Source: Escherichia coli
GTDB lineage: Bacteria > Pseudomonadota > Gammaproteobacteria > Enterobacterales > Enterobacteriaceae
Assembly (NCBI RefSeq): GCF_003334305.1
Contig: NZ_QOWS01000005.1
DNA length: 64,000 nucleotides
Direction: 5' to 3' (one strand)
The notes beneath the pieces were generated by a model. That model did no database searches. It was not told the DNA's origin and worked only from the letters and a program-made list of their open reading frames with translations. Position numbers and translations under genes: made by a program. Shown piece by piece: positions 6,278-7,534 of the stretch (position 1 is the stretch's first letter; each line of letters begins with the position of its first letter).

Positions 6278-7534
6278 ATGGGATCTGATGCGAAAAACTT
6301 GATGAGCGACGGGAATGTGCAAATTGTTAAGACCGGCGAGGTCATTGGCGCGACGCAACTTACTGAAGGCGAGTTGATTGTTGAAGCTGGCGGAAGAGCC
6401 GAAAATACCGTGGTCACGGGGGCTGGCTGGTTGAAAGTGGCAACCGGTGGGATCGCCAAATGCACACAGTACGGTAACAATGGCACGCTATCGGTCAGCG
6501 ACGGTGCCATTGCCACAGATATTGTTCAGTCCGAGGGAGGCGCAATTAGTCTCTCTACGCTCGCTACGGTTAATGGCCGCCATCCCGAAGGTGAATTCAG
6601 CGTTGATCAGGGTTATGCCTGCGGTTTGTTGCTGGAAAATGGCGGTAACCTGCGTGTACTGGAAGGACATCGCGCGGAAAAAATCATTCTCGATCAAGAG
6701 GGCGGCCTGTTGGTTAATGGGACAACCTCAGCGGTCGTGGTAGATGAAGGTGGTGAATTGTTGGTGTATCCAGGTGGGGAAGCCAGCAATTGTGAGATTA
6801 ATCAGGGCGGCGTTTTTATGCTGGCCGGGAAAGCCAGTGATACGTTGCTTGCTGGTGGCACCATGAATAATCTCGGTGGTGAAGACTCTGACACTATTGT
6901 TGAGAATGGATCCATTTATCGTCTGGGGACGGATGGCCTTCAGCTCTACAGTTCCGGTAAGACGCAAAACCTGTCCGTGAATGTGGGTGGTCGGGCTGAA
7001 GTGCATGCCGGTACGCTGGAAAATGCGGTAATACAAGGTGGAACAGTGATCCTGTTGTCACCCACCAGCGCGGACGAAAATTTTGTCGTAGAGGAAGATC
7101 GCGCACCGGTTGAACTGACCGGGAGTGTTGCATTACTGGACGGCGCTTCAATGATTATTGGCTATGGCGCAGATCTGCAACAATCAACGATTACTGTACA
7201 GCAGGGCGGTGTGTTGATTCTCGACGGCAGTACGGTAAAAGGTGACGGTGTCACTTTTATTGTTGGTAACATCAATCTGAATGGCGGAAAACTGTGGCTG
7301 ATCACTGGTGCGGCAACGCATGTGCAACTGAAAGTGAAACGCCTGCGCGGAGAGGGAGCGATTTGCCTGCAAACCAGTGCGAAAGAAATCTCACCTGACT
7401 TCATCAATGTGAAAGGGGAAGTTACCGGGGATATACACGTTGAGATAACAGATGCCAGTCGGCAAACTCTGTGCAACGCTCTGAAATTACAGCCAGACGA
7501 AGACGGGATTGGCGCAACGCTCCAGCCTGCGTAA
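6278..7534 (+). CDS. ydhQ: Autotransporter passenger-like (AIDA-repeat) protein YdhQ, no beta-barrel domain
   Basis: ORF-track 418 aa; Gly-rich degenerate repeats (GGxAENTVV, EGGAISL, EGGELLVYPGGEASN, QGGVFML, VGGRAEV, QGGTVIL) typical of beta-helical passenger domains; no obvious signal peptide or C-terminal barrel. Confidence 0.85.
   Translation: MGSDAKNLMSDGNVQIVKTGEVIGATQLTEGELIVEAGGRAENTVVTGAGWLKVATGGIAKCTQYGNNGTLSVSDGAIATDIVQSEGGAISLSTLATVNGRHPEGEFSVDQGYACGLLLENGGNLRVLEGHRAEKIILDQEGGLLVNGTTSAVVVDEGGELLVYPGGEASNCEINQGGVFMLAGKASDTLLAGGTMNNLGGEDSDTIVENGSIYRLGTDGLQLYSSGKTQNLSVNVGGRAEVHAGTLENAVIQGGTVILLSPTSADENFVVEEDRAPVELTGSVALLDGASMIIGYGADLQQSTITVQQGGVLILDGSTVKGDGVTFIVGNINLNGGKLWLITGAATHVQLKVKRLRGEGAICLQTSAKEISPDFINVKGEVTGDIHVEITDASRQTLCNALKLQPDEDGIGATLQPA

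What the first reader, a model, noticed from the sequence alone, without database searches (positions are those of the whole stretch)
6278..7534. ydhQ: autotransporter passenger-like repeat protein lacking secretion signal and barrel
The 418-aa product is built of Gly-rich degenerate repeats like those of AIDA-type passenger domains, yet the N-terminus (MGSDAKNLMSDGNVQIVKTGE) is not a signal peptide and the protein ends (…GIGATLQPA) without a C-terminal beta-barrel. It is either a decayed or orphan autotransporter fragment, or a cytoplasmic beta-helix protein with another role. It sits next to the divergently transcribed tandem tRNA-Val genes.
Basis: partly seen in the sequence, partly recalled or inferred. 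Interest (0 to 1): 0.4.

Follow-up and report, generated by a model that had tools for sequence, protein, structure and literature searches.

The report
YdhQ: barrel-less, leaderless autotransporter passenger
This is the known E. coli gene ydhQ, which encodes only the beta-helix "passenger" part of an adhesin-type autotransporter, with no export signal and no membrane barrel; it is not decaying, because it has been kept intact under purifying selection across the genus Escherichia, so it probably works inside the cell at an unknown task.

Summary
Window 6278-7534 (+) encodes the 418-aa YdhQ. Profile, sequence and fold searches all place it with Ag43/AIDA/TibA-type passengers. It has no signal peptide, no transmembrane segment and no beta-barrel, and it ends inside the autochaperone (Pertactin) module. 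It is divergent from tandem tRNA-Val(GAC) genes.

- The same 418-419 aa ORF, with the same termini and synteny, occurs in E. coli, E. ruysiae, E. whittamii, E. marmotae and E. albertii.
- dN/dS is about 0.1 overall and 0.017 for residues 71-140.
- The locus matches in all 5426 complete E. coli genomes (5420 with at least 80% coverage).

Salmonella and Enterobacter have mdtK directly next to the tRNA-Val pair. ydhQ is therefore absent from this locus in both outgroups; among the ~100,000 species genomes scanned, close YdhQ relatives were found only in Escherichia. No close full-length autotransporter parent exists (38% identity or less).

The best reading is a domesticated, cytoplasmic, passenger-derived beta-helix of unknown function. 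Invariant cysteines and published cytosolic, proteomic and RNA-crosslinking data agree with this.

The gene and its leaderless nature are already published (2026), so novelty is low. The new parts here are the selection evidence, the failed autotransporter membership test and the locus history. Interest is modest.

The parts
6278..7534 (+). ydhQ CDS, 418 aa plus stop: a stand-alone right-handed beta-helix derived from an autotransporter passenger
   Evidence: ORF. NCBIfam NF007409 equivalog, 941 bits over the full length. AF2 pLDDT 91. Annotated 'ydhQ: AIDA repeat-containing protein' in RefSeq E. coli genomes.
6302..6910 (+). AIDA-type strand-loop-strand repeat region (aa 9-211)
   Evidence: Pfam PF16168, 3 significant and 2 weak copies. 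TIGR04415. Aligns to Ag43 residues ~200-420.
6488..6697 (+). Most constrained segment (aa 71-140; ...ATVNGRHPEGEFSVDQGYACGLLLENGGNLRVLEGHRAEK...)
   Evidence: Pooled dN/dS 0.017, against 0.10-0.20 elsewhere in the gene. Nearly all columns are invariant among 7 orthologues.
7262..7486 (+). Truncated autochaperone/Pertactin module (aa 329-403), covering model positions 1-78 of 121; the protein ends 15 residues later
   Evidence: Pfam PF03212 E=4.2e-5. Alignment with full-length autotransporters shows YdhQ ends at the '...GGGxAxFTL' position; the rest of the autochaperone, the linker and the barrel are absent.
6262..6270 (+). Shine-Dalgarno region (AGCAAAGGA), ending 7 nt before the ATG
   Evidence: Sequence. 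Invariant in the 7-species alignment of the upstream region.
6205..6277 (+). Conserved block immediately upstream of ydhQ (presumed promoter/5'UTR); no consensus sigma-70 site was called
   Evidence: Alignment A3. The promoter scan found no + strand site. No significant RNA fold.
7541..7566 (.). Bidirectional intrinsic terminator shared by convergent ydhQ and mdtK
   Evidence: Terminator-like hairpin called on both strands.
5813..5970 (-). Tandem tRNA-Val(GAC) genes (valV/valW), divergent neighbours. Not part of the protein's function, but they mark the insertion site.
   Evidence: ARAGORN, Rfam tRNA. In Salmonella and Enterobacter the same pair lies ~150 nt from mdtK with no ydhQ between.

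Best explanation
YdhQ is a passenger-only descendant of a type Va (AIDA/Ag43/YcgV-like) autotransporter.

Origin (inferred): an ancestor of the genus Escherichia acquired a ~1.5-kb segment between mdtK and the valVW promoter. The segment encodes the middle and C-proximal part of a passenger beta-helix. It lacks the signal peptide, about 60 N-terminal passenger residues, the last third of the autochaperone, the linker and the 12-stranded barrel.

Localisation (shown by sequence, plus a published fusion experiment): the product cannot enter the Sec pathway or insert in the outer membrane, so it stays and folds in the cytoplasm as a ~20-rung, acidic, right-handed beta-helix.

Selection (shown): it is maintained by purifying selection, so it has a function.

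Mechanism (inferred, weakest step): it most likely acts as a rigid binding scaffold whose business surface is the ultra-conserved 71-140 segment, engaging a cytoplasmic partner. Published pull-down and crosslinking screens point to the translation/RNA milieu. It is unlikely to act as a surface adhesin.
For: Architecture:
- Only AIDA and Pertactin hits, no barrel.
- The whole chain is modelled as a beta-helix, pLDDT 91.
- Structural neighbours are Ag43 and TibA.
- No signal peptide or TM segment; in-frame stop 2 codons upstream; only 40 nt, which form a terminator, separate it from mdtK.

Ancestry:
- YdhQ 7-395 aligns to residues 77-489 of a 771-aa autotransporter, which has 282 residues left that match the TIGR01414 barrel model. 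Two other full-length autotransporters behave the same way.
- Alignment A2 shows the end point inside the autochaperone motif.

Functionality:
- 418-419-aa orthologues with identical termini in five named species plus one unnamed lineage.
- Synteny ydhR-valVW-ydhQ-mdtK-ribC is conserved.
- dN/dS is 0.06-0.125 between species, similar to ydhS, and 0.05-0.27 within E. coli.
- Synonymous versus nonsynonymous contingency test, p about 1e-65. Simulated neutral drift at a divergence of 0.2 or more leaves at most 0.2% of ORFs open.
- The locus matches in 5426/5426 complete E. coli genomes, 5420 with at least 80% coverage.

Lineage-specific gain: Salmonella and Enterobacter have mdtK followed directly by valVW.

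Cytoplasmic adaptation: 3-5 Cys per orthologue, with C115 and C363 invariant, versus 0 Cys in 8 of 9 homologous secreted passenger segments.

Literature:
- SignalP 6 finds no signal peptide, and YdhQ fusions fluoresce in the cytosol (PMC13101318).
- The native protein is detected by proteomics (PMC6561319).
- It is recovered in the UV-crosslinked, RNase-sensitive OOPS RNA-interactome (bioRxiv 10.1101/2023.07.03.547468).
- It copurifies with EF-Tu (PMC2672614).
- It is a predicted/omics-supported CsrA target (PMC5389547).
Against: - No partner or activity is demonstrated. EF-Tu is a common pull-down contaminant, and an acidic protein (net charge -27) is an odd RNA binder.
- Deletion strains are used as neutral backgrounds with no reported defect (bioRxiv 10.1101/2023.03.28.534373).
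- Second-hand citations say ydhQ contributes to early adhesion (PMC9110714, citing work I could not read). YdhQ is listed within a COG found in vesicle proteomes (PMC10458587).
- PMC13101318 reports surface display when a signal peptide is added.
- One study reports site-wise positive selection (PMC9110714).
- Native localisation has not been measured directly.
Confidence: 0.62

Rival explanations
1. Decaying relic: ydhQ is a non-functional remnant of a deleted autotransporter gene that has simply not yet been lost.
For: The architecture is obviously truncated at both ends. The gene is dispensable in the laboratory and is used as a neutral integration site (bioRxiv 10.1101/2023.03.28.534373). 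Occasional disruptions exist: ISEcp1 in strain AR_0013 and singleton alleles with in-frame deletions.
Against: dN/dS is about 0.1 across the genus and within E. coli. ORF length and both termini are invariant across species with dS up to 1.07. Neutral simulations close the ORF. Only 6 of 5426 genomes lack at least 80% coverage.
Confidence: 0.04
2. Non-classically exported adhesin or aggregation modulator: YdhQ reaches the cell surface, vesicles or medium without a signal peptide (by lysis, vesicles or an unknown route). There it binds surfaces or the homologous beta-helices of Ag43-type self-associating autotransporters, affecting early adhesion.
For: Homology to self-associating passengers. 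A second-hand report says ydhQ is needed for early adhesion (PMC9110714). The COG3468 cluster containing YDHQ is found in vesicle proteomes (PMC10458587). Display activity is reported when a signal peptide is supplied (PMC13101318).
Against: There is no signal peptide, no barrel and no partner secretion gene nearby. Cysteines are conserved, which is unusual for translocated passengers. Leaderless fusions stay cytosolic (PMC13101318). UV crosslinking to RNA implies an intracellular location (bioRxiv 10.1101/2023.07.03.547468).
Confidence: 0.15
3. Mis-annotated gene boundaries: the real protein is longer, with a signal peptide or barrel supplied by an upstream start, a frameshift or a neighbouring ORF.
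For: None found. Considered only because truncated autotransporters are often assembly or annotation artefacts.
Against: An in-frame TAA lies two codons upstream, and a conserved Shine-Dalgarno sequence ends 7 nt before the ATG. No + strand ORF of 50 aa or more lies in the 307-nt spacer apart from one across the tRNAs. Downstream, 40 nt that form a terminator abut convergent mdtK. The boundaries are identical in four E. coli genomes that I opened individually and in all sister species.
Confidence: 0.01
4. The constraint is not on the YdhQ protein but on the DNA or RNA, for example as a spacer or insulator for the strong valVW promoter or as an antisense transcript.
For: The first ~150 nt next to valVW are almost invariant, and a FlhDC SELEX site maps there (PMC9962212).
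Against: Within the CDS, synonymous sites diverge freely (dS 0.4-1.07) while nonsynonymous sites do not. That pattern is specific to selection on this reading frame. The conserved non-coding block lies outside the CDS.
Confidence: 0.02

Closest known systems
Antigen 43 / AIDA-I / TibA self-associating autotransporters (type Va; PDB 4kh3, 7ko9, 7koh, 7kob, 4q1q)
   Same: The same strand-loop-strand AIDA repeats and right-handed beta-helix. Sequence E-values run from 1e-13 to 1e-25 and these are the top Foldseek hits. The conserved 'ATVxGxxxxGxFxVxxGxAxxxLLENGGxLxVLxGHxA' element is shared.
   Different: YdhQ has no signal peptide, no alpha-linker and no beta-barrel. It ends inside the autochaperone, carries 3-5 cysteines and is at most 38% identical. 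It is chromosomal core in Escherichia rather than island- or prophage-borne and phase-variable (that last point is from my knowledge of Ag43).
YcgV-type E. coli autotransporters (hits P0100, P0041, P0302; AFDB entries with the old annotation 'ATP-binding component of a transport system')
   Same: These are the only relatives that align across nearly the whole of YdhQ (residues 7-395), including the 'NLG(G/Q)(E/D)' and autochaperone motifs.
   Different: They continue for ~280 more residues that match the TIGR01414 barrel model, and homologues such as P0121 start with a signal peptide. Identity is only 28-32%.
'Leaderless autotransporter YdhQ' as described in J Biol Eng 2026 (PMC13101318)
   Same: The same protein. 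That paper already reports that SignalP 6 finds no signal peptide and that leaderless fusions are cytosolic.
   Different: That paper treats YdhQ as an autotransporter anchor. Here the defining translocator domain is shown to be absent, so the reported display with an added signal peptide lacks a mechanism.

Membership tests
Type Va (classical) autotransporter | N-terminal Sec signal peptide | tested here: not met
   No hydrophobic core (best 10-aa KD 1.03 in the first 40 aa) and a net negative N-terminus. In-frame stop 2 codons upstream. SignalP 6 is negative according to PMC13101318.
Type Va (classical) autotransporter | C-terminal 12-stranded beta-barrel translocator (Pfam PF03797 / TIGR01414) with a terminal aromatic residue | tested here: not met
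   No hit at E<=10 (Pfam) or E<=1 (NCBIfam). The homologues P0100, P0153 and P0173 hit TIGR01414 at 1e-90 to 1e-103. The C-terminus is ...GATLQPA. The model is all beta-helix.
Type Va (classical) autotransporter | Passenger domain folding as a right-handed parallel beta-helix | tested here: met
   AF2 pLDDT 91 / pTM 0.87. Foldseek to Ag43 and TibA at 1e-9 to 1e-11.
Type Va (classical) autotransporter | Complete autochaperone (Pertactin-like) junction preceding the linker | tested here: not met
   PF03212 is matched only over model positions 1-78 of 121. The alignment ends at the GGGxAxFTL position.
AIDA-repeat / SAAT passenger family (Pfam PF16168, TIGR04415) | Multiple ~19-residue strand-loop-strand repeats matching the profile | tested here: met
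   PF16168 E=1.7e-22, plus two further significant copies. TIGR04415 at 42.8 bits, above the cutoff of 30.
AIDA-repeat / SAAT passenger family (Pfam PF16168, TIGR04415) | Self-association or adhesion activity at the cell surface | not testable with these tools
   Needs aggregation and adhesion assays. Only second-hand literature statements are available (PMC9110714).
YdhQ equivalog (NCBIfam NF007409 / PRK09945) | Full-length match above the curated cutoff (830 bits) | tested here: met
   941.5 bits, residues 1-418 against model positions 1-418.
Pseudogene / gene remnant | Relaxed constraint (dN/dS near 1; frequent frameshifts or stops among lineages) | tested here: not met
   dN/dS 0.05-0.27. 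ORF intact in every species sampled and in the four E. coli alleles opened; 29 of 30 evenly spaced E. coli rows carry the ydhQ gene name.

The most novel reading that the evidence does not exclude
YdhQ is a case of domestication of a secretion-system passenger as an intracellular protein. In this reading, an autotransporter beta-helix has been re-purposed in the Escherichia cytoplasm as a scaffold that contacts RNA or the translation machinery through its invariant 71-140 face. That would be a function with no precedent among type V secretion proteins.
Probability: 0.2. Interest if true: 0.65.

Novelty: already known. Interest (0 to 1): 0.3.

Why it matters
Practically, YdhQ is being called, and engineered as, a 'leaderless autotransporter' anchor. 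Showing that it has no translocator and fails the family's defining tests should change how those display results are read.

Biologically, it is a clean, genus-wide example of a secretion-system passenger that has survived as a stand-alone, probably cytoplasmic, protein under purifying selection. The result turns a vague y-gene annotation ('AIDA repeat-containing protein') into a specific testable question: what does the invariant 71-140 face of the beta-helix bind?

It is not a new kind of system, and the gene, its fold and its lack of a signal peptide are already in databases and the literature.

Tried and rejected
- I looked for a cryptic signal peptide or longer ORF upstream. This is rejected: an in-frame TAA lies 2 codons upstream and there are no + strand ORFs in the spacer.
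- I looked for a barrel remnant downstream. Only a 40-nt terminator precedes mdtK.
- I looked for a close full-length parent autotransporter. The HMMER scan of 1.84 billion representatives found none above 38% identity; everything closer is a YdhQ fragment. A scan of ~100,000 species genomes with two YdhQ-specific peptide patterns returned only Escherichia. That scan is not exhaustive: known carriers such as E. marmotae and E. ruysiae were not listed under those names, so the status of E. fergusonii is unknown.
- I considered tRNA-linked genomic-island integration. This is rejected because ydhQ is on the promoter side of valVW. GC content (51-53%) is ordinary.
- I checked for a defence-system role. 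PADLOC gave no hit. PHROGs matched only uncharacterised families, including a 947-position one (phrog_21473).
- I checked for a structured 5'UTR or known RNA element. Rfam found nothing in the ydhQ leader, and the fold z-score is 0.66.
- I tested whether strong acidity marks YdhQ as a DNA mimic. Net charge -27 lies inside the range of the secreted homologues, so it is not diagnostic.
- The original adhesin-screen paper (Roux et al. 2005, J Bacteriol) is not held in the library, so statements about adhesion phenotypes are second-hand.
- Simple sequence autocorrelation did not clearly exceed shuffles, so the repeat claim rests on profile matches.

Full report
WHAT IS THERE

Window 6278-7534 (+) is a 418-aa ORF starting MGSDAKNLMSDGNVQIVKTGE and ending GIGATLQPA. 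It matches the NCBIfam equivalog for YdhQ over its full length (NF007409, 941 bits against a cutoff of 830). The 2-kb region is 97.7-100% identical to the ydhQ locus of E. coli genomes, where it is annotated 'AIDA repeat-containing protein'. The window allele is not the K-12 allele: it is 99.0% identical to MG1655-derived strains and 100% identical to several clinical and food isolates.

The neighbours are ydhS and ydhR (minus strand), two tRNA-Val(GAC) genes at 5813-5889 and 5894-5970 (minus strand, divergent from ydhQ), convergent mdtK (7575-8948, minus strand) and ribC/ribE. A Shine-Dalgarno sequence (AAGGA) ends 7 nt before the ATG, and an in-frame TAA lies two codons upstream. A bidirectional terminator at 7541-7566 fills the 40-nt gap to mdtK.

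CHECK OF THE OBSERVATION

Passenger similarity:
- Pfam AIDA E=1.7e-22, with further copies over aa 9-211, and the Pertactin (autochaperone) family over aa 329-403.
- NCBIfam Ag43, AIDA-I and the strand-loop-strand repeat.
- Solved Ag43-family and TibA passengers at E from 1e-13 to 1e-25.
- An AlphaFold2 model built from a 16-sequence alignment is one continuous beta-helix (pLDDT 91, pTM 0.87). Its best PDB neighbours are Ag43 and TibA. Its best AFDB neighbours after YdhQ itself are E. coli autotransporters: YpjA, YcgV-type and Ag43.

Signal peptide and membrane features:
- The best 10-residue hydropathy in the first 40 aa is 1.03.
- The N-terminus is net negative.
- There is no lipobox and no twin-arginine motif.
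- The most hydrophobic 19-residue window in the protein is 1.28, so there is no TM segment.

Barrel: no barrel family is hit even at permissive thresholds, and the C-terminal residue is Ala, not aromatic.

One caveat: plain sequence autocorrelation at lags 19/36/54 (z about 4.2) does not clearly beat shuffles. The repeats are degenerate and detectable mainly by profiles.

WHAT PIECE OF AN AUTOTRANSPORTER IT IS

In a HMMER scan of 1.84 billion representative proteins, the only hits above 38% identity are YdhQ or fragments of it. The best full-length relative is a 1534-aa Ag43-like protein at 38% identity.

A few relatives align over nearly all of YdhQ. YdhQ 7-395 aligns to residues 77-489 of a 771-aa YcgV-type protein, which has 282 residues left over. 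Two others have 388-401 residues left. In all three, the left-over residues match the autotransporter barrel model TIGR01414 at 1e-90 to 1e-103.

The multiple alignment shows that YdhQ ends at the 'GGGxAxFTL' position of the autochaperone. This is consistent with Pfam matching only positions 1-78 of 121 of the Pertactin model. A homologue with an intact N-terminus (P0121) shows that YdhQ also lacks the signal peptide and roughly 60 N-terminal passenger residues.

YdhQ is therefore a passenger core with a truncated autochaperone. It fails three of the four structural criteria of a classical autotransporter.

IS IT DECAYING?

No. The evidence is as follows.
- Orthologues of 418 aa (419 in one lineage) exist in E. 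ruysiae, E. whittamii, E. marmotae, E. albertii and further Escherichia lineages. They share the same first eight residues and nearly the same last 16, and are 72-90% identical.
- All those with enough flanking sequence sit in the same place, ydhR-valVW-ydhQ-mdtK-ribC. The short contig of the 72% allele keeps the valW-proximal spacer.
- Nei-Gojobori dN/dS against the window allele is 0.06-0.125. Over the same loci ydhS gives 0.08-0.10, ydhR gives 0.05-0.17 and mdtK gives 0.015.
- For E. coli versus E. albertii there are 175 synonymous and 98 nonsynonymous differences on 308 and 946 sites respectively (p about 1e-65).
- Simulated neutral substitution at a divergence of 0.2 or more leaves at most 0.2% of ORFs open.
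- Among five E. coli alleles (window, K-12, O157:H7, CFT073, 7/2), all are 418 aa and dN/dS is 0.05-0.27.
- The locus matches in all 5426 complete E. coli genomes, and 5420 cover at least 80% of the query. One exception that I opened has an ISEcp1 insertion.
- Constraint is uneven: residues 71-140 have dN/dS 0.017, and residues 281-350 have 0.20.

A published scan reports some positively selected sites in ydhQ (PMC9110714). That is compatible with a low gene-wide ratio.

WHERE IT CAME FROM

In Salmonella enterica and in Enterobacter, mdtK is followed after about 150 nt by the same tRNA-Val pair. No ydhQ and no autotransporter lies between them. The gene is therefore absent from this locus in both outgroups, and the simplest reading is a gain on the Escherichia branch, on the promoter side of valVW. 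This is not the tRNA 3' end used by integrases, and GC content is ordinary. I found no flanking remnants of the missing parts. Whether the fragment was acquired already truncated or trimmed afterwards cannot be told.

WHERE THE PROTEIN IS AND WHAT IT MIGHT DO

Without a signal peptide it cannot reach the periplasm by Sec or Tat, and without a barrel it cannot translocate itself. Several observations agree with a cytoplasmic life.
- YdhQ orthologues carry 3-5 cysteines, with C115 and C363 invariant. Eight of nine homologous segments of secreted passengers have none. From general knowledge, passengers avoid cysteines because periplasmic disulfides block translocation.
- A 2026 study found no signal peptide with SignalP 6 and showed that leaderless YdhQ-pFAST fusions fluoresce in the cytosol (PMC13101318).
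- The native protein is seen in proteomes (PMC6561319).
- It is among 17 unannotated proteins recovered in the UV-crosslinked, RNase-sensitive OOPS RNA-interactome (bioRxiv 10.1101/2023.07.03.547468).
- It copurified with EF-Tu (PMC2672614).
- The transcript is a predicted and omics-supported CsrA target (PMC5389547).

None of this defines a function. My committed reading, at about 0.6 confidence, is a cytoplasmic beta-helix scaffold that binds a partner through the invariant 71-140 face. The last step is inference only.

The main rival (about 0.15) is non-classical release and an extracellular adhesion or aggregation role. It is supported only by second-hand statements (PMC9110714), by a COG-level listing in vesicle proteomes (PMC10458587) and by the display data below.

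AN UNEXPLAINED CONFLICT

PMC13101318 reports that YdhQ works as a surface-display 'anchor' when an exogenous signal peptide is added, and calls it a leaderless autotransporter. Since no translocator domain exists, that result needs another explanation, such as leakage, piggy-backing on other autotransporters or an assay effect. It should be re-tested.

REGULATORY SURROUNDINGS

The 307-nt spacer has three parts:
- an almost invariant ~150 nt next to valW, containing the tRNA promoter-like TTGCCA-17-TAATAT and the published FlhDC SELEX site (window 6021-6062; PMC9962212);
- a variable middle section;
- a conserved ~70 nt before the ydhQ ATG.

No consensus sigma-70 promoter for ydhQ was called. 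The leader has no significant fold and no Rfam match.

NOVELTY AND SCORE

The gene, its AIDA/Pertactin domain content, its predicted fold (AFDB) and its lack of a signal peptide are already public, so I rate the finding 'already known'.
- an explicit failed membership test for 'autotransporter';
- the exact truncation points;
- evidence of genus-wide purifying selection with a hyper-conserved segment;
- the cysteine signature;
- absence of the gene from the valVW-mdtK locus in Salmonella and Enterobacter, and Escherichia-only hits in the species-genome scan.

Interest is 0.3. A specialist would be mildly, not very, surprised. The open question of what a domesticated passenger does in the cytoplasm is now testable, but it is not a long-standing problem.

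Noticed in passing
window 5689-5851 (+): The Rfam model RF02194 'HPnc0260 bacterial antisense RNA' matches at 112 bits (gathering score 59). The match is antisense to the start of ydhR and to the 3' part of the first tRNA-Val gene. It may be a tRNA-antisense artefact of that family or a real antisense transcript.
   Followed up: no
window 6021-6062 (-): The FlhDC genomic-SELEX site published for the ydhQ/valV spacer (PMC9962212) maps exactly here. It lies inside the near-invariant block that also holds the valVW promoter-like TTGCCA-17-TAATAT (6025-5997). 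It may therefore concern the tRNA operon rather than ydhQ.
   Followed up: partly
L015 4580-7497 (E. coli AR_0013, NZ_CP032204.1): In this strain ydhQ is split by an ISEcp1 (IS1380-family) insertion. This was the only one I opened of the 6 complete genomes (of 5426) that lack at least 80% coverage of the locus.
   Followed up: partly
L003 320-1579: A 419-aa ydhQ allele only 72% identical to the window allele (dS saturated, dN/dS 0.06) comes from an unnamed lineage known only from Logan assemblies (SRR31578456). Its upstream spacer still carries the valW-proximal conserved block. The organism was not identified.
   Followed up: partly
L001 3251-4432 (E. albertii): ydhS (the 534-aa FAD/NAD-binding protein at window 3670-5274) is absent between ydhT and ydhR in this E. 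albertii contig. It is present in E. coli, E. marmotae, E. ruysiae and E. whittamii.
   Followed up: no
L013 7514-13362 (Salmonella enterica): In Salmonella the tRNA-Val pair next to mdtK is followed directly by type III secretion genes (Bac_export, FliP, SepQ, SsaO/SsaP families). This is the known SPI-2 insertion at tRNA-Val. The same tRNA locus has therefore been a site of lineage-specific gain on both of its sides in different genera.
   Followed up: no
proteins P0003, P0005, P0008, P0010, P0011, P0013, P0015: Singleton E. coli YdhQ variants of 370-403 aa cover 100% of the query, which implies in-frame internal deletions of roughly one to two beta-helix rungs. They are rare next to the 8778-member 418-aa cluster.
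   Followed up: no
window 7541-7566: A strong GC-rich hairpin with T-runs on both strands serves as a shared bidirectional terminator for convergent ydhQ and mdtK.
   Followed up: no
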